Shown here in pieces: positions 5,747 to 45,248 of a DNA stretch of 45,248 bases (positions are counted from its first letter, which is position 1; each line of letters starts with the position of its first letter). The notes under the pieces are model-generated. The model was given only the letters and a program-made list of their open reading frames with translations, was not told the DNA's origin and did not search any database. The stretch comes from Adineta steineri (lineage: Eukaryota), in contig CAJNOI010000182.1 of NCBI GenBank assembly GCA_905250115.1, positions 108,962 to 154,209 of the forward strand. Direction: 5' to 3'. The translations under genes and the position numbers were made by a program.

Positions 5747-5780
<34 letters not shown>

Positions 5781-11844: not shown

Positions 11845-12286
11845 ACTATTCCTATCTTTTATTCCAGCACTCAATTAAGATTTCTTTTTCTTATTGCATT
11901 ATATGCATGAATGAAAAAAGAAAATGAATTATTATCTAGATTCGATAATATATTTATCATATCATTGTCTTCGAATACAATTGAAAGATAATGATCTGTG
12001 CAAATAAATGTAGATTAGGTTTGTATTGATTGTATTACATATTGAATAGCTAATGGCAAAATATGAAATTAGTTTCTTACTTTTGTTTTTTATTTAATTA
12101 TATTTTCTCCTTTTTTTTATTATTATTTAAGATTTAATATTCTCAATGATGCACAGGGTAATGTCTTCGTCTTGTTACTTGACGGAGTATCGCACTAGTG
12201 AATTCATTGAATACAATATAAATAGAAGAAATATTTTTTTTTTAAGAAAAGTGGTCTTTTCTTTGATGGTATTGTTGTTGGATAAT

Positions 12287-12568
12287 CTAATGTTTTTCTT
12301 GTTGTTGAAAATTATCCATATCATTGTTGTTCATTGTTGATTCATCTAAAGATCGTTTCCAGAATTTACGAGGTGGTGCACGTTTCCAAAATCGTGATTT
12401 AGCTGCACGTACATTTAGAAAATGAGTTGGATAATAAGAATCAAATTGATTCCAATCACTATTAGCAGTTGCATAATCATCGTTATCTAATGAAGAACTT
12501 GATGAAAGTGTAATGCCAATTAAAGCAATAAATAAACATAAAATAGTATTAATCAATGTCATACGCAT
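12287..12568 (-). CDS. Hypothetical secreted peptide precursor (93 aa) with paired dibasic sites.
   Basis: It has an N-terminal signal-like segment, MRMTLINTILCLFIALIGITLSSSSS. It then has ...FLNVRAAKSRFW-KR-APPRKFW-KR-SLDE.., giving two KR-delimited peptides that end in R/K-F-W. This is weaker than the 7573..7887 precursor because no Gly precedes KR. Confidence 0.3.
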   Translation of the reverse strand: MRMTLINTILCLFIALIGITLSSSSSLDNDDYATANSDWNQFDSYYPTHFLNVRAAKSRFWKRAPPRKFWKRSLDESTMNNNDMDNFQQQEKH

Positions 12569-17801: not shown

Positions 17802-19447
17802 TTAAACAGCAAACATTTGTGGGACATATAGATCCGAATCATTTAAAGATGTCGATAGATCATCAAGACCAACAAGACCATTATTGCCACTGCTACCATT
17901 TATAGATGACGATGGATCGGCTGTTGTTCCAGATGAATCACTAGTACCATTTGGTGCATACATAGTCGCATAAAGACGACGCTAAAAATTAAAAAATAAA
18001 AGTTTACTTATTAAAATATTGTTTTGAAAATAAAATAAAAGTTTCTCACTTTTTTTGTTTCATTCTCCATTACTTCATATGGATCTGTATACAAATCACA
18101 ATGTAAATCATTATGATTTGGTAAAAGTCCACCAAGATTAATATTCGAATTTGAATTACCACCACCGGTTGTATATATATGATGTAAATCTAAATGTCCA
18201 TGATGTATATGATGATGAAGTTCACTATGTGGTATCGGTAACGGTTGAGCTAATGAATGATGTTGTTGTTGTTGTTGTTGTTGCAAAAGATGATGATTAA
18301 CATTCATTTGCTGCTGCTGCTGTTGAGAAGGATCTATATAAGGTAATTCGATCAGTCCATTTTTACCTTTATTCGTTGTTACTAATGTACGTCGTACAAT
18401 GGGTCGTAATTTATACAAAGGTGGTTCAGGTGTATTTGCTGTGATACATTTTGGACATAGCCATGTTTCCGGTATATCATCACTGAATACACCTTCATTT
18501 GTAGACGTATCTGGATGAGCACTCTAATATAAAATAACATGATATTTATATAAGAAAAAGAATAATTCAAAATTAAAATATACTTTAAAACATACATGAA
18601 AACATGGTAAATGATGTATTTCCATGCAACGTTCACATTCATATAGGATTTCTTCTGGTTTTAGTTGTGATAATTTTCGTGAACCTTTCTTTTTTGAACA
18701 TATTTGACAGGAAGCTGTTGATGGTAATATTGGCGCAATACATTGTTTTGTTAAACAACATTGTTTCATTTTACCAACACCACCAAATTTTGGCATATCT
18801 TTACAATGTACACATTCAGAACAATCATCACGACAACATGGTTCACATTGCTTACAACTATTTAAAATGTATTTTTTTTTATAATATAGAAATACGAATG
18901 CAAAAAAACAAATAAAATCATACCGAACACGTTTATGTCGATCTTTTGCAGTAGATGTTTTATCTGTACTTGTCGGATAATGTTGTTGTGTGGGTGTTGG
19001 AGGTGATGTTGCTGTACTATATTGATTATTTCCATTTGTATGATGATAATTGATAACATAATGTTGTTGCTGTTGTTGTTGTTGTTGTTGTTGCTGCTGT
19101 GCTGCATAATAGTTAGCTAAATTCGATTGTGTTTGTTGTTGTTGTTGTTGAGATGAATTTGAACCAGCTAATGGTCCACTTAAAAGGATAGTTGCAGATG
19201 GATGTAGTGTAACAACATTTGTAGTTGTCTGTTGTTGCATTGTTAATGTATCATATTGATGATGATGAGAAGGATGATGTGACGATTGTTGTGGAGTATG
19301 AGGATGCTGCTGCTGATGCTGATGATGATGATGGAATGACGAATGATGTTGCTGTTGCATATCGTCACTACCCGTACTGCTCTTACGTTTTATGCCTCGT
19401 AAAGTCTCCGTTATTGTTGTTCGTTCGTTCTGAAACATATGATACAT
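17802..19447 (-). CDS. CXXC-type zinc finger + PHD-like finger protein, Gln/His-rich, 4 exons.
   Basis: Exons are approximately 18924..19447, 18596..18858, 18050..18522 and 17802..17981. Exon 2 encodes CKQCEPCCRDDCSECVHCKDMPKFGGVGKMKQCCLTKQC, a canonical CXXC domain with a KFGG core. That is followed by a C4HC3-like finger, CQICSKKK...LYECERCMEIHHLPC...WLCPKC. The flanking regions are poly-Q/poly-H low complexity encoded by (TTG)n. Confidence 0.72.
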
Positions 19448-20493
19448 CTTATGTCACAAACTACGATCAACAACTAGAATGATACGTGCGTACACAAGTC
19501 GAGTCAACATGACTTTTGTAATAGTTTATTTAGAGCTCCGACTCTATGTACATGTGTCGTCTATATCTTAATGAACCTGTTGTCTTTGTCTATGTCTATT
19601 GTCTTAGCTTACCTGACAGTGATTTGTATCGATGGAGAGTTGTTGATTATAGTTATAATGAATTATTGTTTGACCAGTTATTGCTAATAAATGATCGTTT
19701 GAAGCATGATCAATAAGAAAATGCTAAAAGATAATATATTTAAGATTGCATCATATTTGTTCTGATTACAAGGTTAAGAAAAAGAAGAAAAATGTGAGGT
19801 CAAATGACCAAAAATGTATGTGTGTATTTATGGACAAACATAAAATTTTTTTGCGTGTAAATATCTTCTCATAGTAAGTATATGGAGACATTCTCATACT
19901 TTTTTTTTCCTTTTGCAATAAGATACTCGTTCTTTTTTTTCATTAGGTTTCTTTCAAAATTACTTAAACAGAACAAAAATATAAGTTAATCATGAAGCTG
20001 TCAGGAAACCTTAAAGTAAAATTTTTCGCCTTATTTGTCTAGAAAATTTTTTTAAGAAATTGATGCATGTAAATGAATAGAAAAAGAACGACAGATATAA
20101 ACAACGATATAGTAGTATTAACAGAACTTATTCAATAATAGATATTATCTCAAGACAAACATTTATTCATTGTATCTATCTTTAACATAAGAGAGCGACG
20201 ACCTTTTCCAAAATGAAATTTCCATGAAAAAACTTATTCGTATTGTTATATCTCAAGAATCAATTAACAAAATTGATAGTATTCAAAAGATAAATGAAGA
20301 GAAACAGAAAGCATTCTTTTTAGTTCAATTTACCTCCATTGTATTCGTAAGCTGTTGTGTCTGTACAAGTTCTTCCGGGATCGATTTGTCTTTCAATTTG
20401 CGTTAAAGTGTACATAATTTTACTAGTTCGTTCAATTTAAATTGAGTCAAATATTGATATTGTTATTCTTGTTACTGCTATTCACTGTCTTTG

Positions 20494-20530
20494 TTATTAT
20501 TATTATTATTATTGTTGTTGTTGTTGTTCA
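20494..20530. repeat. (ATT)n(GTT)n compound microsatellite
   Basis: ttattattattattattattgttgttgttgttgtt. Confidence 0.8.
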
Positions 20531-21097
20531 CCACCAACAATCGACTTGTTCGACAAGGTTTCAGATCTAAAGACACAGCAATCGATCGCGCGCAACATAT
20601 AGAGAATGAGACAAAGGGGCTTCCTTTTTGCTGCTCATCATTTGAACAAAATAACAATGGACCTCTCAAAGAGACGAAGGAGGAGGAGGAGAAGGATGGT
20701 GGCAAGTAATAAGAGAGCATATTAAAGAGAAGAGACATAACATGATGTTTTTCAAGAGAGACAAAAAGAGAACTTGATTGAGCGACATATTTCTACCTGT
20801 ATACGCTAATCGATTGCAATTATATATATATACGTATGAAGAGAAAGAAGAGAAGGAAAAAAAGAAAAACAGAGAAAAGATTTTGTAAGAACCTAAAATT
20901 CGAGAATATCAGGACAACCCATAGCATTGATAGAAATAAATAGGAGCAACGAACAAGAATAAGAGAGAAAAAGAAGGGAAAACGACGACTGTGTGTGTGT
21001 GTATGTGCGAACAACGAGTTTTTCCCTTTTTCGCCCCTATGCGTTCATTCATAAAAGATTTGAGTAATTTGCACACAGATTTCTTTTCTTCTTCTAC

Positions 21098-31399: not shown

Positions 31400-34300
31400 A
31401 TGAGTAAAACAACTACTGCAAGTGATACTAAAAGTCATTCAAGTCCAGTTTATCGAATTCCACCTTATCATTATATTCATGTATTGGATCAAAATACAAA
31501 TGTTACACGACTTGAAATTGGTCCCAAAACATTCATTAAACAAGATAATGAAACAGTTATTCTTGGACCCGAAAAGATGATCACAGTACCGTATGTAAAA
31601 AAGAAATGCAAATAAATAAATAATTATTTTAAATCTTATTTCAGACCACGTCATTATTGTGTTGTTGAATCACCTGTAATACGCAATGAAGCTGGAGAAG
31701 TAGAATTTGATGAAAATGGTCAAGCTAAACTTATTCATGCTGATTTGGATATTCGTCTTGCACAACCTGATCAAGCACCATTTCCACTTTATCCTGGTGA
31801 AGTTCTTCGTCAAGTATAGGATTGAAAAAATTTTGTTTAAGAAATAATATCAATTATTAAATTCTTTTTTAGCCTGTTACTCCTTTAAAAGTTGTACCTG
31901 CTAATTCAGCATTACGGCTCAAAGCTGTACTTGATTTTGATGATGAAACTGCTAAAGAACAACGTCGTGCTGGTGATGAATGGTTATTTGAAGGTCCAGC
32001 TACTTATATTCCACGTAAAGAAGTTAGTGTTGAGGAACAAATTCGTGCTACAGTTATTGGTTCTAATCAAGCCATTCGACTTTGTGCAAAAAAAGAAATT
32101 ACTGATCGTACTGGTCAACATCGTGTCACTGGTGAAGAATGGTTAGTTAAAAAAACCGGTGCTTATTTACCTCTTGCATATGTAAGTTAAAAAATTACTT
32201 TTATTAATACTAATTAATTATAAACTAAACATTATAGGAAACAGTTGTTTCTGTTGAAAATGCTCATGTATTAACCGATAAAAAAGCTTTACAACTTCGT
32301 GCATTAAAAACATTTACTGATGATTTTGGTAAAGAACGTATGAATGGTGAAGAATGGCTTATAACTTATCTTGATACAGAAACACATATACTTAGTGTTT
32401 ATGAACAATTAGTTGCTGTTGTTGATGTAATAACACTTAATTCTCGTCAATATTGCGTTATAATTGATCCAGTTGAAGATGGAAAACAACAATTAGGAAA
32501 AAAAGTTTGTTATCAAAAATTTTTGTTTTGTATTTTAGAAAAGTTAGAATTTTTTTAGAAACTTATTCTTGGTGAAAAATCATTTTTTCTTCAACCTGGT
32601 GAAAAACTTGAAAATGGTATTCAAGATGTTTTTATATTAGGCGCAGATGAAGGTGTTATACTTAAATGTATAGAAGCATTTGAAGATCAACAAGCTAATG
32701 TAAAACGAAATCCTGGTGATCGATGGATGATTCGCGGTCCAACGTAAGATATGGATTTTTATTTAATTTTGAAAATTAATTTAAAATAAATTTTTAGTGA
32801 ATATATTCCTCCAACACAAGTTGAAGTTGTTACACGTCGAAAAGCACTTCCACTAGATGAAAATGAAGGTATCTATGTTCGTGATATAAAAACGGGTCGT
32901 GTACGGGCTGTTATTGGTGAAACTTATATGTTAACACAAGACGAAGAACTTTGGCAAAAAGAATTACCTAAACAAGTTGAAGATTTATTAACACGTGATG
33001 CGTTAGTTGATCGAAATATTCCAACACGTAATAGAACAACTGATAAAAATCAATCTCAACAAGAAACTACTACTAATTCAAAATCAAATGCAGTTAAACG
33101 TGATAAATCTAAATTAGTTACATATCGTGTTCCACACAATGCATGCGTACAAATTTATGATTATAAAGCTAAAAAAGCACGAATTATTTTTGGTCCTGAA
33201 CTTGTTATGCTTGGTCCAGATGAACAATTTACATTACTTTCATTAAGTGGTTCTGTACCAAAAAAACCTAATCAAATTCAATCACTTTGTTTATTATTGG
33301 GACCCGATTTTTTTACTGATGTTATTGTTATTGAAACAGCTGATCATGCTCGTCTTTCTCTTCAACTTTCATATAATTGGCATTTTCAAATTACTGACAT
33401 CAGTGATGAAAAAGAAGCTGCAAAACTTTTTTCAGTACCAGATTTTATTGGTGATGCAGCTAAAGCTATTGCTTCTCGTATACGTGGTGCTGTTGCTGGA
33501 ACACAATTTGATGATTTTCATAAAAATTCAGCTCAAATCATTCGTGCAGCTGTATTTGGTCTTGATGCTAATCAACAAATTCGACAACATTTTATTTTTC
33601 CACAAAATAATTTAGTTTTAACATCAATTGATATTCAAAGTGTTGAACCTGTTGATCAACGTACACGGGATGCACTTCAAAAAAGTGTTCAATTAGCTAT
33701 TGAAGTAAGAGGAATTATTCTAATACAAATATCTAAAAGTAAAAATAAATAATTTAGATTACAACAAATTCACAAGAAGCAGCTGCTAAACATGAAGCTT
33801 CACGTCGAGAACAAGAAGCTAAAGGTTTATTAGAACGACAACGTATTAGAGATGAAGCTGAAGCTGAAGATGTTCGAAAACAACTTCTTCAATTACAAGC
33901 ATTATCAGCTGCTGTTGAATCAACTGGTCAAGCTAAAGCTGAAGCACAAAGTCGTGCTGAATCACATCGAATTGAAGGTGAAGCAGCTGTTGAACAAGGT
34001 ATGAATAGAAATTATTGATGATAAAATTTTCATATAAAAAAATTATTTTTATTTTAATTAGCTCGTCTTAGAGCAGAAGCTACACGTATTGAAGCTGAAG
34101 CTGAATTATCACGTTTGAAATTAGCACGTGAAGCTGAAATAAAATTTTTACGTGAACAAAATGAATTAGAAATTAATAAAAAAGCTGAAATGTCAAAAAT
34201 TGAAACTGAGAAATTTACATTACAAGTTGAAGCGATTGGAGCATCAACCATTCAAGCAATTGCTACTTCTGGTCCAGATACACAAGTTAAACTTTTACAA

Positions 34301-34462
34301 GCACTTGGTCTTCAATCAATGTTGGTTACTGATGGAAATACACCTATTAATCTAATGGGTTTTGGACAAGGACTTTTAGGTGGTTTAACTGGAAATACAA
34401 ATAAAAAATCTAGAACAGCTACTAATACTTCTAGTAATTATCATATTGAAGAGAATGATTAG
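31400..34462 (+). CDS. MVP: Major vault protein (MVP), 8 exons, 889 aa.
   Basis: Exons are 31400..31590, 31644..31812, 31873..32181, 32238..32504, 32559..32743, 32798..33704, 33758..33998 and 34062..34462. All junctions are GT..AG and in frame. The product is collinear with vertebrate MVP throughout: [209 protein letters not shown].. and the C-terminal coiled-coil cap. Confidence 0.93.
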
Positions 34463-35272
34463 ATACAATAAATTTATATTTCTTGATGAACAAAACCAAA
34501 AAAAATATTGTCTGTTCGTTTATGTTTTAATGTTGATAACTTTGTTCTAAACATTTAGTTTGATTATTTTGTAAAAGTTTACACATGAACAATAAATATG
34601 ACTATTTACCATACAATATAAGTTCTTATGTTATTTGTTTCAATATATAAGCTTAGTTATATCACATTTTACCATCTTGAGGTCATAGACAGAGCAAACC
34701 CACATCCTGGAAGTAAAGAATTTTTGAATCAAATCAAAAAGAAAAGCATATTTTATTTTATAGCCATTTGTTGGATTTCGTTTATGAAATGGAAATTTAC
34801 CATTTAAAAAAACTAGTGCAGTTCTAAGCCATCGTGAAGTTCAATATATTGATGATCATGAATTGAAGCTTGATCAAGTTATTACTGTGTACTAATGCCA
34901 AAAGTACCTTTAAATATTTCTACACGAAGTAAACTTATTGAAAATTACAAAGGAAAAAAAAATAAAGTTATTTTTGATTATTGTTTCTAGCTCATTGACT
35001 TGCAATTGAAGGTAACGACTAACCATTAAAGCGGATCTTACGACAGATTCATTAGATCCTGTAAGATTCTCTAGAACAAAATCAAGTTTTCGATGTATTT
35101 TATTGTGTTTTTATATGAAGTCGCTAACAAAGAAATGACGTAATCTTGATGCATCCAAAAGAAAAGTTCAAATCCACATAAACTTTCTTTGGTACATTTA
35201 AAAAAAATACTCATGAATTATGGATGATAGAACTAGTAGCGTATCCAAGGCCACCGATAAAAACCTCTTGAG

Positions 35273-35330
35273 GGTGTGGGTGTGTGTTGGTGTCTCTTTT
35301 CTTAACTTACACCCATACCCAGCCACACCT
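35273..35330 (-). repeat. GT-rich quasi-palindromic hairpin element, copy 1, inverted relative to copies 2 and 3.
   Basis: gggtgtgggtgtgtgttggtgtctcttttcttaacttacacccatacccagccacacc. Its reverse complement is about 90% identical to 35404..35456. Confidence 0.6.
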
Positions 35331-35403: not shown

Positions 35404-35456
35404 GGTGTGGGTGTCAGTTAAGAAAAGAGACACCAACTCACACCCACACCCACGTT
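35404..35456 (+). repeat. GT-rich quasi-palindromic hairpin element, copy 2. It marks the start of tandem unit A.
   Basis: ggtgtgggtgtcagttaagaaaagagacaccaactcacacccacaccc. The arms GGTGTGGGTGTC / GACACC..CACCCACACC are mutually complementary. Confidence 0.6.
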
Positions 35457-35640
35457 CCGTTCAACCGAAATACTGCTTCCATGAAATCGTCGGAATACCA
35501 CGGAACCGGCCGTTTCCATGTCGGATTGTTCGACCTGGGCCATCGGTTTGTTCTGTTTTCTTGTTATTATATGAAAGTATATTTGTAAATTTATTCTAGA
35601 TATATATTTTTTCTTGTCCAAAAACGAAATTTGCAGCAAA

Positions 35641-35893
35641 ATGGCTGGATCATTTATTTTAACTGAAGGAAATGAATTAGCAATAGCTTATTTCAATCGA
35701 GCAGAATATGCTATTGCAATTGTTGATGATGCTGGCTTCGTTTACGATAAGAGTATTAAAATATCAGAAAAGAAATGTGCTGATTTGTTTATGTGATGAT
35801 GAATGTGTTATACTTAAAAGTAGAAAGAATGAAAAAATGTTTTTTGTTCTTGGTGATATTACATGTGCATATGTCTGTATTGAAATGGATTAA
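35641..35893 (+). pseudogene. Frameshifted relic of a CDC48/VCP N-terminal-domain gene (unit A).
   Basis: MAGSFILTEGNELAIAYFNRAEYAIAIVDDAGFVYDKSIKISEKKCADLFM* stops prematurely. The continuation, ...CDDECVILKSRKNEKMFFVLGDITCAYV, is homologous to the unit-B sequence LFVDNGEYVIVKSEKCLETICIVRGDNTCL but lies in another frame. Confidence 0.65.
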
Positions 35894-35945
35894 GATGCAC
35901 AAAGTAATTTAGCTGTAAAAAAAGGTGACACTGTATCTATTCAAG

Positions 35946-36003
35946 GGGTGGGTGTGGGTGTAAGTTAAGGAAAGTGACACCAACACACACCCACACCCAA
36001 CCT
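35946..36003 (+). repeat. GT-rich quasi-palindromic hairpin element, copy 3 (start of unit B).
   Basis: ggggtgggtgtgggtgtaagttaaggaaagtgacaccaacacacacccacacccaacc. Confidence 0.6.
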
Positions 36004-36187
36004 CCGTTCAACCGAAAACTGCTTCCATGAAATCGCCGGAATACCACGGAACCAGCTGTTTCCGTGCCGGATTGTTCGACCTGGACCACCGGTTTGTTTT
36101 GTTTTCTTGTTATTATATGAAAGTATATTTATAAATTTATTCTAGATATATACTTTTTCTTATCCAAAAACGAAATTTGGCAGCAAA

Positions 36188-36574
36188 ATGGCTGGATCAT
36201 TTATTTTCACTGAAGAAAATGAATTAGCAGCAGCATATCTCAATCGTGCCCAACATGCCAATGCAATTGTAGACGATGCTGGTTTTTATTATGACAAAAG
36301 CATCAAGTTATCAGACAAGAAACGTGCTGATTTGTTTGTAGATAATGGTGAATATGTTATAGTCAAGAGTGAAAAATGTCTTGAAACAATTTGTATTGTT
36401 CGTGGCGATAACACATGTCTCAATGATCGTATTCGACTAAATACCGTTGTAACAGACAATTTACGTGTATATTCTCGTGATTTTGTTACAATTCATAAGT
36501 GTGGAAATGTTCCAGATGGTAGCCATATATATGTTTTACCGATTGGTTATTCTGAACACGGATCAAGTAGTTGA
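36188..36574 (+). CDS. Stand-alone CDC48/VCP N-domain (double-psi beta-barrel, Nn subdomain) ORF, 128 aa. It may be a remnant first exon of a decayed VCP paralog.
   Basis: MAGSFIFTEENELAAAYLNRAQHANAIVDDAGFYYDKSIKLSDKKRADLFVDNGEYVIVKSEKCLETICIVRGDNTCLNDRIRLNTVVTDNLRVYSRDFVTIHKCGNVPDGSHIYVLPIGYSEH.. aligns with p97 residues about 20-115: [96 protein letters not shown]. It terminates before the Nc subdomain and has no ATPase domain. Confidence 0.6.
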   Translation: MAGSFIFTEENELAAAYLNRAQHANAIVDDAGFYYDKSIKLSDKKRADLFVDNGEYVIVKSEKCLETICIVRGDNTCLNDRIRLNTVVTDNLRVYSRDFVTIHKCGNVPDGSHIYVLPIGYSEHGSSS

Positions 36575-36690
36575 TAAAGGATGGGATTCTTTTCAAGTAC
36601 TCTCAAAAACCGAATTGGTGATATTTTTTATTAACTTACATTATTATTGTTTATATATCTATGTTTAGAAAAATTCAGCTATTGTAATTA

Positions 36691-36826
36691 CCCAGGTCGA
36701 TGAATACGCGATTCGTATACGGTCGTAATACTGAGACAGGTAATACGCTAAAGTACGACGGAATACGGCACGACATTCGTATACTGTTCGTATACGGTCG
36801 TTTACGACAGACAATGTTCGACCTGG
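36691..36826. mobile_element. 136-bp MITE with perfect palindromic termini CCCAGGTCGA...TCGACCTGGG and subterminal repeats.
   Basis: The first 11 nt, cccaggtcgat, equal the reverse complement of the last 11 nt, (a)tcgacctggg/ttcgacctggg. The interior has reiterated cgtatacggtcgt and gtaatacg motifs. There is no ORF. Confidence 0.6.
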
Positions 36827-36835
36827 GACTATTAT

Positions 36836-37001
36836 AGCTACAACAAATCGACAACGTTTAATTGATTTGCCGCTTTATCTTCGTGCTCAATTTATATACG
36901 AAGTTCTTATTAACACACCTGATGCTGATGAGCGTTTTGATATTCTTGGTAAATACACAGAAAATATGCAATTGGATGATGATGATCGAATACTGCCACC
37001 G
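36836..37001 (+). pseudogene. Isolated fragment of a VCP/CDC48 D1 ATPase domain (the region just after the arginine fingers), sitting between inverted MITE copies.
   Basis: The in-frame translation ..LRAQFIYEVLINTPDADERFDILGKYTENMQLDDDD.. aligns with p97 [39 protein letters not shown]. It is only about 55 codons long and is bounded by a stop codon and by MITE sequence. Confidence 0.55.
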
Positions 37002-37005
37002 TAAC

Positions 37006-37127
37006 CGATCGTTTATCTGCGTGAACGAGAGTATACGATACGGAGAAATACGACCGTAATACTAAGACACGTAATACGTGAAAATACGACCGTATACGAA
37101 TTGAGTATTCATCGACCGGGGTATGTT
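37006..37127. mobile_element. Partial second copy of the 36691..36826 MITE, in inverted orientation.
   Basis: The reverse complement of 37090..37127, ccccggtcgatgaatactcaattcgtatacggtcgta, matches 36691..36727, cccaggtcgatgaatacgcgattcgtatacggtcgta, at 33 of 37 positions. It shares the same subterminal motifs. Confidence 0.55.
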
Positions 37128-37454
37128 CGGCAGCTACTTTATATCGAATTCGACAACAAATGGATGTTATCGACGCCGCAAAAAAAATCATTCATTCCAA
37201 TGTCTTCGGTTCATCAGCTGTAAAAAAAGAAGATTTTCTATTCGTCTTAAACAACAGAAAATAAAAATTTATCTGTATTTGTTGTTTTTTTTTTGAATTA
37301 AATCAACAAAATAAAATATATATTATATTGATCTAAAACTTTTCTAATTATTCTTTGGTACGTGCATCAATATACAAATTTTATTTGAAAAATAATTTAT
37401 CATTTATAAAAACATTTGTTCTGAACTCTGTATACTCAATAAAAAAATATGAAA

Positions 37455-37655
37455 GAAAAAAAACGAAATCAATGAAAACTTCCTTCTTAAGAATGGAGTT
37501 TGCACTGTACATTTCTCACATAAAGATCGTCGTGTTGTTATTCTAATTGAACAGATGAAACTAGTAACACCAAAATAAAATAATAAAGTTGTTTGATTAT
37601 CAATCATCAATTTTTTTCAAACGAATTGTTGTTTTATTTAAAAGATTTATGTCAT
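37455..37655 (+). repeat. Dispersed ~200-bp repeat 'R', copy 1. Copy 2 is at 45052..45248.
   Basis: aaacgaaatcaatgaaa..ggagtttgcactgtacatttc..gataaagatcgtc(g/a)tgttgttatt(c/t)taattgaacagatg(a/g)aactagt(a/g)acaccaaaa..ttttttcaaacgaat..ttttatttaaaagatt is about 88% identical between copies. It carries a short conserved ORF ..GVCTVHF(S/P)(H/D)KDR(R/H)VVILIEQM(K/E)LVTPK. Confidence 0.7.
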
Positions 37656-38239: not shown

Positions 38240-40522
38240 TTACTTATACAACGAAGGAAAATAACGACATAAATCTTCCGAATGCACCACTGGTTCTATC
38301 GAAGTTATTTTTGTCACCTTAGCACAATTGCGTCGTGTTTCTTCCCTAGTAAAGTCTTTTGTTACAGTTTTTAAATCATCAACATAGACTTCAAATTCAG
38401 TCAGACAAGGTACGAATGTCTTTGTTTCATTTAGAAATTGATCAATATAATCTCTATGTGCAGATACGACACCAAGTACAGTCAGATGAGGATATTCAAT
38501 AATCGACTGTAATAGACAATTTTCAGATGACAATGTCATAAGACCATTTAAATTTTGTGATTTTTCATTCCGAATAAAAAGATGCTTGAGTAACGGAAAC
38601 GATCGGGCAATTCGCATGAAGAATTCATGTTCGAATGGAATAATATCTTGTATAACTAAATAGGTAACATAACTAAATACAATATTTGGAAAGTTATTGC
38701 CAATATCTCGGAGATAATCAAATCCAAAAGGAAGTGAGAAAACGGAGCATGCAGCTCTCACACCATAAATACAATTAACTTCACTAATAACATAATTGAC
38801 CATACTACTGACATGTTGTTGTCCAATATTTCTTAATTTTATTCGAATATCTTCACTTGATAACTTGCAGGATAAAACAGCTGGATCAACATAAGTACAA
38901 ATATAGAAAGTGAATGAACGAAGTTGTGGCATATAATCCAAAATATCATGTTGAACATAAGTACCACCAATAACTCTATTTCGACCTTTTATAGAAATAT
39001 TTAGAGTTAACTTTTCCAGATCTGACATACGACGAAGAAGTAATACAACTTTATCATATTGATATAATGGGCAGGACGATTTTAATGAGAAACATTTTAG
39101 ATTCAATAATTTATCCTACAAAAAGAAAGAAATGTTTTTTTGATAATCTATAAGATTAAGTCATTGGCATCATTATTTTACACATGATATATCATCTATA
39201 TTCTATCTGTGAATGACCACAAATGACAAATCTATTAAATTGATTTTCTCATTTTATAGCACAACAAACGAATGTTAAAAGAACAATCAAAGCTTCAGAC
39301 CGCAAACTTTCGATCATATCTGAATTATTAGAAAAATTGTTATTATAGAAAAACTTTCGTTCCATCCAATGCTGATGATCATTCACATATGATAATATTT
39401 GATCAATCATGAAACAGAGTAGTCCAGTTTTTAATGTGAACTATATTCGATAAAATATTATATAGTTATAATTTCTGGCTACAAATTTCATTGGTTCGTT
39501 TATTAAATTGTAATTTCTACTACCTACAAACTAAATGTTGATGATTTTGATATATTCCTCAACACGAATATTTTTTTCTCCTTATCAAAATAAAACTTAA
39601 ACTTTCAATCTTATCTCAATTTTTTGAGATCAATCGTTAACTGCATTGAAATAGCCGTAATCTTCGTGGCATAAATGAAATTATTTGTAACAACTTACCA
39701 TATTGCGAACACTCTCTGAGTGTGTGTCTATATAATAGACATTAACACACAATGTTGCCAATTTTTTAAGTCGACCATCAAGTAAATAAAGACAATCACC
39801 AAAAGTTTCGACATTGATATATAAATGAGTAAGAGTCGAAGATGAAAAAGTAGTCGATGGCAAATAACAAAGTGATAAAGGTGGACATGACCTAACAGAT
39901 GGTTCTATGATACTTAATTTTTTTAAGTTTTTGAAAAAGATCAAGATGTAAGCATATACATTATCAGTATATATCTTCGGGAAATATTCCTTGTTGTATT
40001 TATCATCATTGATAAGAATAAGGTTTGTAATTTGTTCTTGAAAAATAGATCGAAGTGATGATTTATCTAAAGGAGAAAAGTGATGTATTGAAACATATTA
40101 TTCTTCTTTCATTTGTAACTCTTTTATTATTTCTCAACTAATCAAAGTCATATTAAATGCTTACTTGTAAAATAGTTTGAAGCGATTTCTTCTTGGAAAT
40201 GAAAAATTGTAAGTTTAGTTAAATTTGGATAGTCAGTAGCAAGAAGAATACGTTCCATAAACATTGGATCAAAAGCAAAACATTTCACATTGTGATGAAT
40301 TCTTGGTAATATATCACTGCAGAATCGATCGATGATAGAAATATTATCAATGGAAACAAACTTGAGAATGTTGCTGAAAATATTTTCTTGTGCAAGAATG
40401 TTAAGTCGTCCATCATTCATATCCAATAAAGAATATAGTATATCGATATTGTTCAAGTACTTCAAAATAATAAGCAATATTTCATTAGGTAAATCCAGAA
40501 GATGAGCATTCGATCGGTTCAT
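38240..40522 (-). CDS. F-box protein (N-terminal F-box, long C-terminal region of unrecognised type), 3 exons, about 530 aa.
   Basis: Exons are 40165..40522, 39699..40066 and 38240..39115. The N-terminus MNRSNAHLLDLPNEILLIILKYLNNIDILYSLLDMN is a textbook F-box (LP.EIL..I..YL). The downstream exons are collinear in frame. Intron 2, at about 583 bp, is unusually long for this locus, so a missed exon or a two-gene split cannot be excluded. Confidence 0.65.
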
Positions 40523-42487: not shown

Positions 42488-42654
42488 GCAACTACATCAA
42501 TCGTTTATCTTGAAAATTTGAACCAGATTGTTATTATGATGAAACAAATTTGATTTATATAATTTGATTTACAGTTTTTTTAATCTTGCCATTTATGACA
42601 ATAGATTTGTAAATTTTTTTTAGATAAAAATTTTAAATTTTCTTAAATACTCAT

Positions 42655-44216
42655 ATGAAAATGGCTGCAAGTAATAATGATGGTAAATATGAAACTGTTC
42701 CTGTAGCTGATAAACATGCCGGTGATGAATTACAAGTTGAAGATCAGAACGACGAGGACCATAATACTGTTGTTCTACCAGCTCAATTATTGCGAGATAT
42801 ATTCGATTCATTTAAGAAACTTTTCATCATCATTCATCATCAAGTACATGATAAATCTCTTGTATGCGTTGGTAAAACGCAGAACGTTAGATTAGCTCTT
42901 CCTGGTCCAAAAATGAAAATGAGTCGTGTAATAAGGAAAAATTTGAATATATTATTAAATGATGTTGTGACATTTGACGCATGCCAAAATATTATAGAAG
43001 GTGAACGTCTTGAAGTCGCACCCATTTATGATACCATTAATGGATTAACAGGAAGTCTATTAAATATTTTTTTAATACCATATTTTCGTATTAAAAATCC
43101 TGGTCGACCGGTGAATCAAGGTGAATTTTTTATTGTTCGTGCAGCTATGCGTGCTGTAGAATTTCAAGTTATTAAAACTGTACCAGAACCGTATTGTATT
43201 GTTGGACCCAAAACAAAAATAGTTTGTAAAGATGTTCCAGTTAAACGTGAAGAAGTGAAATCATCGTTGAATGAAGTTGGTTATGATAGTATTGGTGCTG
43301 TAAAAAAACAACTGGCATCAATTAAAGAAATGGCTGAATTTACATTACGACATCAACCATTAATTAAACTAAGTGGTGCTACACTGGCACAACGTATTCT
43401 TCTCTATGGACCACCTGGCACAGGTATAACAAAAAGAAATCTTATTTTATTAAGAAAAAAAATGTTTTATATTTTAGGGAAAACATTGGTCGCACGTGCC
43501 GTGGCAAACGAAACAGGTGCATCATTCTTTTTAATTAGTGGACAAGAAATGATGTCTAAATTAGCTGGTGATGAAGAAGTAACATTAACTAAAGTTTTTG
43601 AAGAAGCTGTAAAAGTAAATACATAATAGTTTTTTTTAAATAATTAAAATTAAGAAATTATTCGGTATTATTTTATTTATAGAAATCTTCAGCCATCATT
43701 TTCATTGATGAGCTCGATGCTATCGTACGAAAACGTCAAAATACACATGGTGAAGTTGAATGTTGCATAGTATCACAATTATTAACAATAATGGAGAATC
43801 TTAAACAACATTCACATGTTCTTTTTATGGCTGCCACAAATCAACCAAATGACATTGATTCAAAACGATTTGGTTTTAATCTCGAAGTTGATTTGAACAT
43901 AGCCGATGATGATGTTAATGGTCGTTTAGAGATCCTTCTTATACATACAAAAAATTGGAATCTACATCATGATGTTAATTTAGAACAGATTGCTAAAGAA
44001 ACACCCGGTTATGTTGGTGGAAACTTAGTCTCATTATGTTCAGAAGCTTATTTACAACAACTTCGAGAAAAAAAGGATATTTTTGTTCCAGGTCAAGATA
44101 CATATCCTGTTGAAAAACTCGATTTATTATGTATTACTGAAGAAAATTTTCGAGTTGCATTGGAGCTATCAAAAAAAACAGTTCTACGCAAATCTGTTTC
44201 AAAGAAAAAAGACTGA
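42655..44216 (+). CDS. VCP/p97/CDC48-like AAA+ ATPase paralog, truncated to N domain + D1 domain (no D2), 3 exons, 477 aa.
   Basis: Exons are 42655..43423, 43478..43608 and 43683..44216. Splicing of intron 1 (54 nt, gtataac..ttttag) restores the Walker A P-loop GPPGTG|[14 protein letters not shown]. The product aligns with p97 from the N domain through D1: ..[241 protein letters not shown]... It stops where the D1-D2 linker would begin. Confidence 0.85.
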
Positions 44217-44403
44217 TCCTAAGTTGTCAGTAAGCATTTAAGAACTGTATTCTTTTTATATTCTGTTTTCATCATTTGCTGTTGTTCACTTTTCTTCTTT
44301 TTTTATTTCCTTTAACATCAAATAAAATGTAAAAAAAAAAGACAGAATGATGAAAATAACATGTCTTCATATATTTTTTTTTTTCGATTGGGCGAGCTTG
44401 AGG

Positions 44404-44460
44404 TAGTGGGTGTGGATGGAATAGAATACACACACGAACACTCTCGTCCACGCCCACCCT
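44404..44460. repeat. GT-rich quasi-palindromic hairpin element, copy 4, located 3' of the VCP-like gene.
   Basis: gtagtgggtgtggatggaatagaatacacacacgaacactctcgtccacgcccaccc. It has the same GTGGGTGTGG...CCACRCCCACCC architecture as the 35273/35404/35946 copies. Confidence 0.5.
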
Positions 44461-45051
44461 TCATTATCAGTATGAAATTCGTCATCAACATTAACATCAA
44501 ATATTAGTTCATTACTTGGTTCTTCTGGTGAACCAACAAATGTTGCTTCCAATTAATCATCTAATGCTTATTCACCATATTCAAATCATCCAACACAATC
44601 ACCAGTTATGCAAATCAATTATCAATGTAAAAAACAAACAAAATAAAAATTATAAGAAATATTTCTTTAAAAATCCTTTTTGTTTTTATATAGCATAAAG
44701 TTCTTATATTCTAACACCAGTTGTATCAAGTGATAGTTTTTCTTCATCATCGAATAATAATACTTCATCTGACCAATCTTCATTTGAAAATAATGTTTAA
44801 TTACCAACAATAAACATTACACCTGTGACACCAAGTGCACAATATGCACCAGTGCCAACTTCACTTCGTTAGTTTTTTCTTCATCTTTTCTTGATAAATA
44901 TAAGAATTAAATGAATAGACTTTGACTCAATAACAAATAATGATTGACATACAGAAGATTTGTATGCTAGAATCAAAGTTTCAAATAAAGATGAAACAAT
45001 TTATGTTGAAATGATTGGTGTTATTCAAAGTATATCTGTAGATTTTCTATT

Positions 45052-45248
45052 AAAGAAGAAAACGAAATCAATGAAAGTTTCTTTTCTTAAGCAGGGAGTT
45101 TGCACTGTACATTTCCCAGATAAAGATCGTCATGTTGTTATTTTAATTGAACAGATGGAACTAGTGACACCAAAACAAAACGATAAAGTTATTTGATAAT
45201 CATTTATCTATTTTTTTTCAAACGAATCGATTTTTTATTTAAAAGATT
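45052..45248 (+). repeat. Dispersed ~200-bp repeat 'R', copy 2. It runs to the end of the window.
   Basis: See 37455..37655. The conserved short ORF here reads ..KQGVCTVHFPDKDRHVVILIEQMELVTPKQNDKVI*. Confidence 0.7.

What the first reader, a model, noticed from the sequence alone, without database searches (positions are those of the whole stretch)
42655..44216. VCP/CDC48 paralog reduced to N+D1 with altered arginine-finger and sensor residues
The gene is clearly p97-like, with N domain, Walker A GPPGTGKT, Walker B IIFIDELD and a D1 alpha-domain. It terminates at the D1/D2 linker, so the D2 ring that provides most p97 ATPase and unfoldase activity is absent. Within D1 the second-region-of-homology arginines (p97 RFGRFDRE) read RFGFNLE, and sensor-1 ATNRPN reads ATNQPN. 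This predicts a protein that binds nucleotide and hexamerises but hydrolyses poorly. It could be a regulatory, dominant-negative or adaptor-scaffolding Cdc48 variant. Intron 1 is 54 nt, in frame and stop-free. Its retention would insert 18 aa between GPPGTG and KT and destroy the P-loop, which is a possible on/off splice switch.
Basis: partly seen in the sequence, partly recalled or inferred. Interest (0 to 1): 0.66.

Follow-up and report, generated by a model that had tools for sequence, protein, structure and literature searches.

The report
Truncated fast-evolving rotifer p97 copy
This is a real gene of the bdelloid rotifer Adineta steineri: a copy of the essential protein-unfolding ATPase p97/CDC48 that lost its second motor ring through an internal deletion, keeps an intact ATP site, and has changed faster than its own introns, so it is an evolving spin-off rather than plain junk, with an unknown job.

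Summary
The sequence facts are right. Window 42655-44216(+) holds a 3-exon gene for a 479-aa protein. It is identical to an annotated Adineta steineri protein and aligns to human p97 residues 12-468 (E 1e-167). No D2 ring is encoded within 10 kb downstream. Two residue labels were wrong. The catalytic arginine finger R359 and the sensor-1 Asn348 are both intact. What is lost is R362 (reported to stabilise the hexamer), R365, R322/R323 and K315. Most of the N-domain cofactor cleft and 8 of 11 invariant linker residues are also changed.

Both introns sit where the canonical gene has them, and their sequences still align. The stop codon lies in what was the parent gene's 3'UTR. So the gene arose by DNA duplication of a canonical p97 followed by a ~1.36-kb internal deletion.

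A second N-D1-only gene (P0184) appears to share that junction. A dead copy lies 6 kb upstream.

The reading frame cannot have survived 32% nucleotide divergence by chance. The exons differ from the parent about three times more than the introns do.

The intron-retention "switch" is not supported.

Verdict: a selected, rapidly diverging truncated p97 paralogue; function unknown; expression untested.

The parts
42584..42634 (+). 5' flank (21-71 nt before the ATG) shared with the dead upstream copy; a candidate core promoter or 5'UTR
   Evidence: 81% identical over 52 nt to window 35559-35610, which sits at the same distance from the dead copy's ATG. Function is inferred.
42655..43423 (+). Exon 1: N domain, N-D1 linker and the start of D1 up to the first base of the Gly257 codon in the P-loop
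   Evidence: Gene model. Aligns to p97 residues 12-250. Identical to the NCBI annotation.
43408..43485 (+). Walker A GPPGTGKT (aa 252-259), split by intron 1
   Evidence: All eight residues are canonical.
43424..43477 (+). Intron 1: 54 nt, phase 1, in frame and stop-free. Homologous to intron 1 of canonical gene c122.
   Evidence: Same position and phase as in c13, c122, P0184 and P0329. 48 of 54 aligned bases are identical to c122, and 0 of 500 shuffles reach that score.
43478..43614 (+). Exon 2: D1 from K258 to K302, including pore loop 1 (KLAG)
43615..43682 (+). Intron 2: 68 nt, phase 0. Homologous to intron 2 of the canonical genes.
   Evidence: 58 of 62 aligned bases are identical to c122, and 0 of 500 shuffles reach that score.
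43683..44216 (+). Exon 3: the rest of D1 (Walker B, sensor-1, SRH, lid), a diverged N-terminal half of the D1-D2 linker, the tail SKKKD and the stop codon
43695..43718 (+). Walker B IIFIDELD (aa 307-314), with the catalytic Glu retained
43830..43886 (+). Sensor-1 and second region of homology: [20 protein letters not shown]348 and R359 are kept. R349 is Gln. Residues 356-357 and R362 are deleted. D364 is Asn and R365 is Leu.
44199..44216 (+). Deletion junction and new C-terminus. The frame runs from linker codon ~468 into former 3'UTR sequence and stops at the TGA within TGATCCTAA.
   Evidence: Aligns to c122 3'UTR position ~3786 of L004, 53 nt after c122's own stop.
44217..44375 (+). 3'UTR or 3' flank inherited from the c122-type parent gene
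   Evidence: Smith-Waterman score 76 against a null mean of 23 and null maximum of 36 (z = 16.5) versus the c122 3'UTR; no similarity to the c13 3'UTR. blastn gives 80.6% over 72 nt, E = 1.7e-12.
35559..37264 (+). Dead tandem copy (psi) of an N-D1 p97 gene. Recognisable pieces: N domain 36188-36544, SRH 36831-36983, lid 37121-37252. The Walker A/B region is deleted. It carries an internal 547-bp tandem duplication (35404-35866 ~ 35951-36418).
   Evidence: tblastn with canonical p97 gives 41-45% identity and E down to 3e-20. Repeats. No D2 remnant.
37448..37647 (+). 3' flank element of the dead copy, shared with the 3' flank of the intact gene
   Evidence: 86.6% identical over 202 nt to window 45047-45248.
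45047..45248 (+). 3' flank element of the intact gene, shared with the dead copy

Best explanation
WHAT IT IS (shown). The gene is a species-restricted paralogue of p97/VCP/CDC48 in the bdelloid rotifer Adineta steineri. A canonical p97 gene of the 'c122' type was copied at the DNA level. Its first two introns were kept at identical positions and phases, and their sequences still align. A ~1.36-kb internal deletion then joined the D1-D2 linker (about codon 468) to the old 3'UTR. This removed D2 and the C-terminal tail. The result is a 479-aa N-D1 protein with a 5-residue new tail.

The gene belongs to a turbulent A. steineri p97 family. That family includes several canonical copies. It also has a degenerate full-length copy (P0329) and an N+single-AAA chimera. 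A second intact N-D1-only gene (P0184) sits at another locus and appears to share the same deletion junction. A dead tandem copy lies 6 kb upstream in this window.

HOW IT EVOLVES (shown). It is kept as a reading frame by selection while its protein changes very fast. 38% of the sites that are invariant from choanoflagellates to vertebrates are replaced. The N domain differs from the parent more than the gene's own introns or 3'UTR do.

HOW IT MOST LIKELY WORKS (inferred). The complete ATP site (K251, D304/E305, N348, R359, H384) and the N-D1 interface residues (R155, R159, R191, N387) are kept. The protein should therefore still bind ATP, possibly hydrolyse it, and couple nucleotide state to N-domain movement. 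It has no D2 motor and no C-terminal tail. It lacks R362, R365, R322/R323 and K315. Its cofactor cleft is rewritten (R53K, G54K, D55L, I70C, L72G, Y110E, Y143G). It therefore cannot be a p97-type unfoldase and probably no longer binds the standard UBX/VIM/SHP cofactors. My committed guess is a nucleotide-gated binding module. It would form its own weakened ring or a smaller oligomer and present a new N-domain surface to a new partner. Its subunit interface would have diverged so that it no longer poisons the essential canonical hexamer.
For: Identity and architecture.

No D2 within 10 kb.

Shared intron positions and phases. Alignable introns (48/54 and 58/62 bases, 0 of 500 shuffles). 3'UTR homology to c122 (z = 16.5) and the stop codon lying inside the old 3'UTR.

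Bdelloid, vertical origin: the NJ tree places the gene inside the bdelloid clade with 97% bootstrap support.

Family members.

P0184 has the same three-exon structure. Its coding sequence ends at codon ~464-470 and runs into c122-type 3'UTR (z = 6.0).

Selection for the reading frame: with random substitutions, the fraction of simulated sequences with no stop codon is 0.02 at 5% divergence, 0.0005 at 10%, and 0 of 2000 at 15% or more. The observed divergence is 32%. All 7 indels are in frame.

Site-dependent constraint: replacements rise from 38% at invariant sites to 51% at two-state sites and 72% at sites with three or more states (p = 7e-6). The degenerate copies P0329 and P0173 show no such bias.

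Catalytic and interface residues.

Exons versus non-coding DNA, T against c122: exons differ at 26.4% of positions against 8.6% in introns (p = 6e-6). N-domain codon positions 1+2 differ at 38.9% against 21.3% in the 3'UTR (p = 3e-5). If the introns truly differed at 20% or more of positions, they would look as similar as observed in 0 of 400 simulations.

Introns are not conserved across species, so intron constraint is unlikely.

Internal control: in the c122-like half of P0329, 4-fold sites (0.15) and non-coding DNA (0.18) agree.

Residue roles come from the literature: PMC4730245 and PMC9942839.
Against: There is no expression evidence of any kind. The NCBI model is an automatic annotation.

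The protein appears only in assemblies of one clonal line. It is absent from the annotated proteomes of three wild-caught A. steineri individuals. No relative above ~60% identity exists anywhere in the database. The gene may therefore be dispensable.

Pairwise dN/dS is 0.52. A crude three-taxon estimate for its own branch is about 1, with dS near saturation. D1 codon positions 1+2 differ from the parent exactly as much as the 3'UTR does (21.7% against 21.3%), so much of D1 may be drifting.

The neutral reference is small (290 nt) and heterogeneous: 9% in introns against 21% in the UTR.

The 11 linker residues that activate N-D1 ATPase are mostly replaced, and R362 is gone, so the protein may neither hydrolyse ATP nor form rings.

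The AlphaFold model is only moderately confident (pLDDT 65).

Everything about partners and oligomeric state is inference.
Confidence: 0.55

Rival explanations
1. A non-functional relic. In this reading the gene is one more decaying by-product of rampant p97 duplication in A. steineri, and its open frame is either a short-lived accident or reflects a very recent death.
For: Dead or degenerate relatives surround it. A dead copy lies 6 kb upstream. P0329 and P0173 carry Walker B E305K and show no site-dependent constraint.

102 of 269 pan-eukaryote-invariant sites are replaced. The branch dN/dS is about 1. D1 codon positions 1+2 differ as much as the 3'UTR does.

The gene is absent from the other A. 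steineri individuals' proteomes and from other species. Expression is unknown.
Against: No stop codon occurs in 479 codons despite 449 nucleotide differences. About 16 stops would be expected, and 0 of 2000 simulations at 15% divergence or more were stop-free. All indels are in frame. Both splice-site pairs are intact.

The full catalytic set is retained, while the sister copies lost E305. Replacements avoid conserved sites (p = 7e-6). Under neutrality the N domain should not be more diverged than the gene's own introns and UTR, yet it is.

A very recent loss of function cannot be excluded.
Confidence: 0.22
2. A poison or regulatory subunit. In this reading the N-D1 protein co-assembles with full-length p97 into mixed hexamers, or titrates p97 cofactors, and so tunes or inhibits canonical p97.
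For: D1 is the ring-forming domain of p97, and laboratory N-D1 fragments form hexamers (PDB entries 1E32 and 5DYI, discussed in PMC4730245). The N-D1 fold and the ATP site are retained.
Against: The inter-subunit SRH segment carries two deletions and has lost R362, which is reported to stabilise the hexamer. Overall identity to the host's own p97 is only about 52%. Cofactor-cleft residues are rewritten (the residue list is from my own knowledge of p97-UBX complexes). Both points argue against efficient mixing or cofactor capture. Constitutive poisoning of an essential enzyme should be selected against.
Confidence: 0.12
3. An intron-1 retention switch. Regulated retention of the in-frame 54-nt intron would toggle the P-loop on and off.
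For: The intron is a multiple of 3 and stop-free in frame, and it splits GPPGTG|KT.
Against: The position is ancestral. The same phase-1 site occurs in the D1 and D2 P-loops of canonical genes. The homologous introns in c13, c122, P0184 and P0329 are 56, 58, 59 and 56 nt long, with stops or frameshifts. Canonical c122 intron 4 is equally in frame and stop-free. The chance expectation is about 0.03 per intron, and 2 of 21 family introns have the property. There are no transcript data.
Confidence: 0.03
4. An annotation or assembly artefact. The true gene would continue into a D2 exon, or the truncation would be a misassembly.
For: Gene models in these assemblies are automatic. Elsewhere in the family, an N+AAA copy is fused to a transporter gene in the annotation.
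Against: No D2-like sequence is found at E <= 1 within 10 kb downstream, in a genome whose p97 introns are 47-85 nt with a single 303-nt exception. Identical sequence occurs on three contigs, and the window matches the public contig at 99.99%. The stop codon sits in recognisable parental 3'UTR. A second gene has the same architecture.
Confidence: 0.02

Closest known systems
Canonical p97/VCP/CDC48 (type II AAA+ unfoldase, N-D1-D2), including the host's own copies P0013 and P0122
   Same: Direct descent, with shared intron positions and alignable introns and 3'UTR. The N-domain beta-barrel, D1 Walker A/B, sensor-1 Asn, R359, pore loop KLAG, H317 and the lid domain are all present. It aligns to p97 residues 12-468 at E = 1e-167.
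   Different: There is no D2 and no C-terminal tail. R362 is deleted. R365L, R322C/R323C and K315N are present. The cofactor cleft is rewritten, and only 3 of 11 residues in linker 460-470 are kept. Identity is about 52%, whereas canonical p97 proteins from this rotifer's two paralogues differ by dN = 0.038. The CDC48_N Pfam model is no longer detected.
Laboratory N-D1 truncations of human p97 (residues 1-458, 1-481; PDB 1E32, 5DYI, 3HU1 and others)
   Same: The domain content and end point are almost identical. The natural protein ends at about p97 residue 473, and these constructs are among its best PDB matches. They form hexamers, and their D1 ATPase depends on the linker (PMC4730245).
   Different: Those constructs have wild-type sequence. 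Here the activating linker half and the hexamer-stabilising R362 are not conserved, so neither ring formation nor activity can be assumed.
P0184 (CAF0807385.1), the second N-D1-only p97 gene of A. steineri
   Same: 480 aa, with three exons and the same two intron sites. Its intron 1 matches c122 at 53 of 56 bases. Its coding sequence ends in the linker and runs into c122-type 3'UTR. No D2 lies within 8 kb. It groups with the window gene in the NJ tree (85% bootstrap).
   Different: It is only 38.5% identical to the window gene and sits at a different locus, next to innexin genes. It carries Walker B E305K, Walker A P247S and T252S, and has lost both SRH arginines, so it is catalytically dead by sequence. 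It is found in different A. steineri individuals.
AAA+ paralogues with a degenerate ring, such as PEX1/PEX6 D1 and NSF D2 (from my own knowledge)
   Same: They show the general principle that one ring of a p97-like ATPase can become a non-catalytic assembly or binding module.
   Different: Those proteins keep both rings in one chain and are ancient and conserved. Here the active motor ring is physically deleted, and the gene is young and fast-evolving.
Accelerated-evolution gene families, the classic case being snake-venom phospholipase A2 genes
   Same: Exons are more diverged than introns. All three codon positions change at similar rates (identity 0.68, 0.74 and 0.62). KA approaches KS. The venom pattern is as summarised in PMC7285919.
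   Different: This is an intracellular ATPase fold, not a secreted toxin. The 3'UTR is not more conserved than the exons. The sample of non-coding DNA is tiny, and no ecological driver is known.
Caenorhabditis angaria CAI5447520.1 (P0135)
   Same: It is an annotated 880-aa protein made of two consecutive N-D1 units without D2. N-D1-only p97 derivatives therefore arose in another animal lineage.
   Different: Its SRH arginines are intact, its origin is unrelated, and it may be two tandem genes merged by annotation. I did not examine it further.

Membership tests
p97/VCP/CDC48 subfamily (N-D1-D2 type II AAA+) | Descent from a p97 gene: best matches are p97, and gene structure is shared | tested here: met
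   E = 1.5e-167 to human p97. Both introns lie at the canonical positions and phases and are alignable. The 3'UTR is homologous to canonical gene c122. The gene falls inside the bdelloid p97 clade with 97% bootstrap support.
p97/VCP/CDC48 subfamily (N-D1-D2 type II AAA+) | Bipartite N domain (CDC48_N double-psi barrel plus CDC48_2 beta-barrel) | tested here: inconclusive
   CDC48_2 passes its cutoff (24.3 against 22.4 bits). CDC48_N is not detected at E <= 0.01. The alignment to p97 does run from residue 12, and the AF2 model shows matching strands at pLDDT 53-70.
p97/VCP/CDC48 subfamily (N-D1-D2 type II AAA+) | Two tandem AAA domains (D1 and D2) | tested here: not met
   There is a single AAA domain. 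No D2 lies in the window or in the 10 kb beyond it. The deletion junction has been identified.
p97/VCP/CDC48 subfamily (N-D1-D2 type II AAA+) | D1 nucleotide site: Walker A K251, Walker B D304/E305, sensor-1 N348 | tested here: met
   All are present.
p97/VCP/CDC48 subfamily (N-D1-D2 type II AAA+) | SRH with two invariant arginines, R359 and R362 (PMC4730245) | tested here: not met
   R359 is present and R362 is deleted. A further 2-residue deletion affects positions 356-357.
p97/VCP/CDC48 subfamily (N-D1-D2 type II AAA+) | Invariant D1-D2 linker residues 460-470 (PMC4730245) | tested here: not met
   [11 protein letters not shown] against NPSALRETVVE, which is 3 of 11 identical.
p97/VCP/CDC48 subfamily (N-D1-D2 type II AAA+) | C-terminal tail ending in DDLY-x (PUB/PUL cofactor site; from my own knowledge) | tested here: not met
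   The protein ends ...SVSKKKD. The canonical host copies end DDDLYN or DDDLYA.
p97/VCP/CDC48 subfamily (N-D1-D2 type II AAA+) | Hexameric ring, ATPase and unfoldase activity | not testable with these tools
   This needs recombinant protein (SEC-MALS, ATPase and unfolding assays).
Classical AAA clade (PF00004 plus AAA_lid_3) | AAA core and lid domains above the Pfam thresholds | tested here: met
   PF00004 scores 120.7 bits and PF17862 scores 39.1 bits.
Processed (retro-)pseudogene | Loss of the parental introns | tested here: not met
   Both parental introns are retained.
Duplicated non-processed pseudogene | Disabled reading frame or splice sites, with neutral substitution pattern | tested here: not met
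   The frame is open and GT..AG is intact. Simulated neutral evolution gives 0 of 2000 intact frames at 15% divergence or more. Substitutions are biased away from conserved sites. The upstream copy at 35559-37264 does meet this definition.
Accelerated-evolution (diversifying) gene families | Coding sequence more diverged than the adjacent introns and UTRs | tested here: inconclusive
   Met against the introns (26.4% against 8.6%, p = 6e-6). For the N domain it is also met against the 3'UTR (38.9% against 21.3%, p = 3e-5). It is not met for D1 against the 3'UTR (21.7% against 21.3%). The reference is only 290 nt.

The most novel reading that the evidence does not exclude
The N-D1-only p97 genes of A. 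steineri (this gene, P0184 and the dead copy) may be a young family whose exons are being driven apart faster than neutral DNA.

Two readings would fit. One is intense diversifying selection on a re-purposed N domain, for example a decoy or sensor for something that targets p97 or its cofactors. The other is an exon-restricted mutational or repair process in a bdelloid genome.

Two observations point this way. The introns stay 89-95% identical to the parent gene while the flanking P-loop exons are only 69-80% identical. The switch in identity falls at the splice sites, in two separate genes.
Probability: 0.22. Interest if true: 0.8.

Novelty: new variant of a known kind. Interest (0 to 1): 0.5.

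Why it matters
p97/CDC48 is among the most conserved and most studied eukaryotic machines. Its isolated N-D1 half is a standard laboratory construct. I found no described natural N-D1-only version in two full-text literature searches.

Here nature has made that construct. It has kept the ATP site, discarded the motor ring, and rewritten the cofactor surface. The gene is young, and its origin can be read base by base: parental introns, a deletion junction, and the parental 3'UTR.

If the gene is expressed, it offers a natural experiment on three questions. What can the D1 ring and N domain do alone? How does a duplicate of an essential homo-hexamer avoid poisoning its parent? How do paralogues diverge in an asexual genome rich in gene conversion?

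The excess of exon over intron divergence, if general, would also be of interest for bdelloid genome evolution.

If the gene is not expressed, it is simply a well-dated example of gene-family churn.

Tried and rejected
Horizontal transfer. Rejected: the gene nests in the bdelloid p97 clade (97% bootstrap), shares bdelloid-type residues, and keeps the host's introns.

Retrocopy. Rejected: the introns are kept.

Hidden D2 exon. Rejected.

Intron constraint as the reason for intron similarity. Rejected as a general explanation: the orthologous introns of A. vaga, A. ricciae and R. socialis are unalignable, and A. vaga lacks intron 1.

One or two contiguous gene-conversion tracts. These do not fit, because similarity alternates: exon low, intron high, exon low, intron high, exon low. 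Selection-filtered micro-conversion remains possible.

Independent truncation of T (this window's 479-aa gene) and P0184. I first favoured this, because P0184 shares E305K, the SKSADKSEE motif and its intron-2 type with full-length P0329. I then set it aside. P0329 proved to be a c13/c122 mosaic. T and P0184 also share the linker-to-3'UTR junction to within about 12 nt on both sides.

Searches that led nowhere:
- A metagenome scan with the N domain found no relatives.
- Exact look-up of the unspliced ORFs found nothing in the collection.
- An N-domain-only homologue search returned only 3 canonical fragments and not even the protein itself, so it is uninformative.
- Rfam found nothing in the window.
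- Two literature searches, one for natural truncated N-D1 p97 paralogues and one for bdelloid p97/CDC48 gene-family expansion, found nothing relevant.

AlphaFold2 with a 30-sequence alignment gave only pLDDT 65 and pTM 0.41. I did not use the model for fold search or interface analysis.

dS-based dating failed. Synonymous sites are near saturation in this AT-rich genome (GC3 0.15), and T, c13 and c122 look equidistant.
Full report
NAMES USED. T is the 479-aa gene in this window. psi is the dead copy 6 kb upstream. c13 (P0013/P0130) and c122 (P0122) are the two canonical p97 genes of the same species.

1. WHAT IS IN THE SEQUENCE.

Window 42655-44216 (+) contains an ATG-to-TGA gene of three exons: 42655-43423, 43478-43614 and 43683-44216. 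The exons are separated by GT..AG introns of 54 and 68 nt. The spliced product is 479 aa. It is identical, residue for residue, to three NCBI entries of the bdelloid rotifer Adineta steineri: CAF0883208.1, CAF0886670.1 and CAF1164981.1.

The window matches contig CAJNOM010000038.1 of assembly GCA_905250015.1 at 99.99%. The organism and gene model are therefore settled, although the public model is an automatic prediction.

The protein aligns to human p97 residues 12-468 with E = 1.5e-167. Pfam finds AAA, AAA_lid_3 and CDC48_2, but not CDC48_N.

tblastn with the host's own full-length p97 finds no second AAA domain in the remaining 1 kb of the window or in the next 10 kb of the contig. In this gene family 20 of 21 introns are 47-85 nt long.

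2. RESIDUE ASSIGNMENTS.

I mapped the protein onto human numbering through a 22-sequence alignment. The following are all retained:
- Walker A, residues 245-252
- Walker B D304 and E305
- sensor-1 N348
- the trans arginine finger R359
- pore loop 1 (KLAG)
- H317
- H384

The changes are R349Q, a 2-residue deletion at 356-357, deletion of R362, D364N, R365L, K315N and R322C/R323C.

The literature identifies R359 as the finger essential for D1 hydrolysis (PMC4730245). It describes R362 as contributing to hexamer stability (PMC9942839).

There is a different reason to doubt activity. The 11 linker residues 460-470 are invariant in eukaryotes and coincide with maximal activation of N-D1 ATPase (PMC4730245). 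Here they read [11 protein letters not shown], only 3 of 11 identical.

In the N domain, residues I recall as lining the UBX/VIM cleft are largely replaced: R53K, G54K, D55L, I70C, L72G, Y110E and Y143G. N-D1 interface positions known from disease mutations are kept: R155, R159, R191, P137, L198, T262 and N387 (both residue lists are from my own knowledge).

3. ORIGIN.

I mapped the canonical genes c13 and c122 exon by exon. Both have a phase-1 intron inside the D1 P-loop (GTG|KT) and a phase-0 intron after EEAEK. These are exactly the two intron sites of T.

T's introns are still alignable to those of c122, at 48 of 54 and 58 of 62 aligned bases. None of 500 composition-preserving shuffles reaches either score.

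T's 3' flank is homologous to the c122 3'UTR (Smith-Waterman z = 16.5) and shows nothing against c13. T's stop codon is the TGA of a TGATCCTAA motif that lies 53 nt after c122's own stop.

T is therefore a DNA-level copy of a c122-type gene. A deletion of about 1.36 kb joined linker codon ~468 to the 3'UTR. The last five residues (SKKKD) are read from junction or old-UTR sequence. This rules out a retrocopy, horizontal transfer and a cryptic D2 exon. An NJ tree places T inside the bdelloid p97 clade with 97% bootstrap support.

4. A FAMILY IN FLUX.

An exhaustive HMMER search of 1.8 billion cluster representatives, plus follow-up look-ups, showed several kinds of p97 gene in A. steineri:
- several canonical p97 proteins
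- a degenerate full-length copy, P0329, with D1 Walker A P-to-R, E305K and an SRH deletion
- an N+single-AAA chimera, the tandem neighbour of P0329
- a degenerate D1-D2 copy, P0173/P0284
- a second intact N-D1-only gene, P0184 (480 aa), at another locus

P0184 has the same three exons as T. Its intron 1 matches c122 at 53 of 56 bases. Its coding sequence ends at codon ~464-470 and is followed at once by c122-type 3'UTR (z = 6.0). No D2 lies within 8 kb.

The junction coincides with T's to within about 12 nt on each side. T and P0184 pair in the tree with 85% bootstrap support, though long-branch attraction is a caveat. A single truncated ancestor is therefore the simplest reading. Even so, the two proteins are only 38.5% identical.

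Inside the window, 6 kb upstream, lies a dead copy (35559-37264). Its N domain, SRH and lid pieces are 41-45% identical to canonical p97. The Walker region is deleted, the frame is broken, and there is an internal 547-bp duplication. It shares a 52-nt 5' flank (81% identical) and a 202-nt 3' flank (86.6% identical) with T. It is therefore probably a tandem duplicate.

Neither T nor P0184 has any relative above roughly 60% identity in 5.8 billion proteins. T is seen only in assemblies of one clonal line. P0184 is seen only in ASTE806-type assemblies (sample names from PMC7943196).

5. IS IT ALIVE?

T differs from c122 at 449 of 1395 aligned coding bases. I scattered substitutions at random on the c122 N-D1 coding sequence. 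The fraction of simulated sequences with no stop codon was:
- 2% at 5% divergence
- 0.05% at 10% divergence
- 0 of 2000 at 15% divergence or more

About 16 stops are expected at the observed divergence, and none is observed. All seven indels are multiples of three.

Replacements are not uniform. They affect 38% of the 269 sites that are invariant in 18 canonical p97 proteins, from Monosiga to vertebrates. They affect 51% of two-state sites and 72% of more variable sites (p = 7e-6). P0329 and P0173 show no such bias.

T is the only divergent member that keeps E305. These facts argue that T has been under selection as a protein for most of its history.

Several facts point the other way. Pairwise dN/dS is 0.52 (N domain 0.7, D1 0.38). 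Subtracting the canonical branch gives roughly 1 for T's own branch, but synonymous sites are close to saturation at GC3 0.15, so this number is weak. There is no expression evidence at all.

6. AN UNEXPLAINED ASYMMETRY.

T's non-coding DNA is closer to the parent than its coding DNA. With one aligner for all classes, T differs from c122 as follows:

- exons: 26.4% of positions
- introns: 8.6% (p = 6e-6 against exons)
- alignable 3'UTR: 21.3% (not significantly different from exons)
- N-domain codon positions 1+2: 38.9% (p = 3e-5 against the UTR)
- D1 codon positions 1+2: 21.7% (equal to the UTR)
- 4-fold degenerate sites: 41% (p = 6e-4 against the UTR)

Gapped alignment of AT-rich introns inflates identity, so I simulated it. 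Introns truly differing at 20% or more of positions reach the observed similarity, jointly for both introns, in 0 of 400 trials.

The change in identity falls at the splice sites. For P0184 against c122 the pattern is exon 52/75, intron 53/56, exon 57/75.

Intron constraint is unlikely. The orthologous introns of A. vaga, A. ricciae and R. socialis are unalignable, and A. vaga lacks intron 1.

As an internal control, P0329 is a c13/c122 mosaic. In its c122-like half, 4-fold divergence (16/106) equals non-coding divergence (about 0.18).

Three explanations remain:
- accelerated evolution of the exons, a pattern described for venom phospholipase A2 genes (PMC7285919)
- very short gene-conversion tracts that survive only in introns, because selection protects the diverged exons
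- an unknown exon-biased mutational process

The first two imply that the coding sequence matters. The non-coding sample is small (290 nt) and internally heterogeneous. I treat this as a lead, not a result.

7. MECHANISM.

Shown: the ATP-binding and catalytic residues, the fold-level similarity to N-D1, and the absence of D2, the C-terminal tail and R362.

Inferred: T binds ATP and may hydrolyse it weakly. It still couples nucleotide state to N-domain position, because the N-D1 interface residues are kept. It cannot thread substrates like p97. Its re-made N-domain surface no longer serves the standard cofactors.

I commit to a nucleotide-gated binding module that forms its own, probably weakened, oligomer. 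The indels and arginine loss at the subunit interface are what one expects if selection favoured escape from co-assembly with the essential parent hexamer. I put this at about 0.55 including the 'alive' premise. A relic gets about 0.22, and a poison or regulatory subunit about 0.12. The splice switch and the annotation artefact are each a few per cent at most.

8. THE SPLICE-SWITCH IDEA.

The P-loop intron position is ancestral. It occurs in both the D1 and D2 P-loops of canonical genes. The homologous introns in paralogues are 56, 58, 59 and 56 nt long. A canonical intron (c122 intron 4, 54 nt) is likewise in frame and stop-free. Composition-matched shuffles give about 0.08 for stop-free, times one third for length, or about 0.03 per intron. 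Observed: 2 of 21 family introns. Nothing here exceeds chance.

9. NOVELTY AND SCORE.

The gene is already in GenBank as an unnamed product. I found no description of natural N-D1-only p97 paralogues or of the A. steineri p97 expansion. A possibly analogous double N-D1 protein exists in Caenorhabditis angaria.

I rate it a new variant of a known kind. It is moderately interesting as a natural version of the N-D1 construct with a fully readable origin. It would be more interesting if the exon-faster-than-intron pattern reflects diversifying selection or a targeted process. It is limited by the complete lack of expression and functional data, and by its presence in only one clonal line.

Noticed in passing
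window 35559-37264 (+): A decayed tandem copy of an N-D1 p97 gene. The N domain, SRH and lid are recognisable, the Walker A/B region is deleted, and the frame is broken. Part of it is annotated in GenBank as a 175-aa protein with no domains (L001 2987-3920).
   Followed up: yes
window 35404-35866 and 35951-36418: A 547-bp tandem duplication (85% identical) inside the dead copy. It duplicates its 5' flank and the first ~50 codons.
   Followed up: partly
window 11959-20815 versus L001 12694-21562 (starts ~100 nt beyond the window end): An 8.9-kb direct segmental duplication, 97.65% identical, with a period of about 33.4 kb. The intact p97-like gene lies 1.1 kb before the start of the second copy and is not itself part of the repeat.
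   Followed up: partly
window 35272-35324, 35404-35451, 35946-36002; also 44395-44470: G+C-rich palindromic elements of the form GGGTGTGGGTGT...ACACCCACACCC, set in otherwise ~28% GC DNA. Arms are 48-53 nt and 92-94% complementary. A similar hairpin-like stretch lies 180 nt downstream of the intact gene. There is no Rfam match. They could be a small mobile element or a structural motif.
   Followed up: no
window 36689-36727 and 37085-37123: A 39-nt inverted repeat (92% complementary) that brackets the SRH fragment of the dead copy. It may mark a rearrangement or an inserted element.
   Followed up: no
L008 16467-18924 (A. steineri contig CAJNOE010000121.1): A tandem neighbour of the degenerate full-length copy P0329. 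It is a p97 copy in which exon 1 (N domain to the D1 P-loop) is joined to D2 from its P-loop onward, making an N+single-AAA chimera. The public annotation fuses it to a sodium:solute symporter gene (980 aa).
   Followed up: partly
L008 8001-10924 (P0329): P0329 is a mosaic. Its first ~100 codons are c13-like (4-fold divergence 0.19 to c13 against 0.45 to c122). Its D2 half, introns 3-4 and 3'UTR are c122-like. It also shares E305K, the SKSADKSEE motif and its intron-2 type with P0184. This is evidence of frequent recombination or conversion among p97 paralogues.
   Followed up: partly
L002 and L004 (canonical genes c13 and c122), codons ~280-380 plus intron 2: The two canonical paralogues are 75-95% identical at third codon positions and 90% identical in intron 2 across this stretch, against 45-65% elsewhere. 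Their introns 1, 3 and 5 are unalignable. This looks like a recent gene-conversion tract between the canonical copies.
   Followed up: partly
L010 (Adineta vaga p97, CP075493.1): The A. vaga orthologue lacks the P-loop intron 1 that is present in A. steineri, A. ricciae and Rotaria socialis. This is an intron loss or gain within Adineta.
   Followed up: no
P0135 (Caenorhabditis angaria CAI5447520.1): An 880-aa annotated protein made of two consecutive N-D1 units of p97 with no D2. It may be two tandem N-D1-only genes merged by annotation, and so an independent nematode example of this architecture.
   Followed up: no
window 32655-34462 (+) and 38240-39106 (-): Neighbouring genes. The 3' part of a major vault protein gene (Vault, MVP_shoulder domains) lies upstream. 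A 288-aa ORF with no assigned domain sits on the opposite strand between the dead and live p97 copies. Glutamine-rich ORFs lie at 5260-6003(-) and 18524-19447(-).
   Followed up: no
(tool behaviour): A homologue search with only the N domain (aa 1-205) collected 68 candidates and did not return the protein itself. Absence of hits in that search therefore says nothing about relatives.
   Followed up: no
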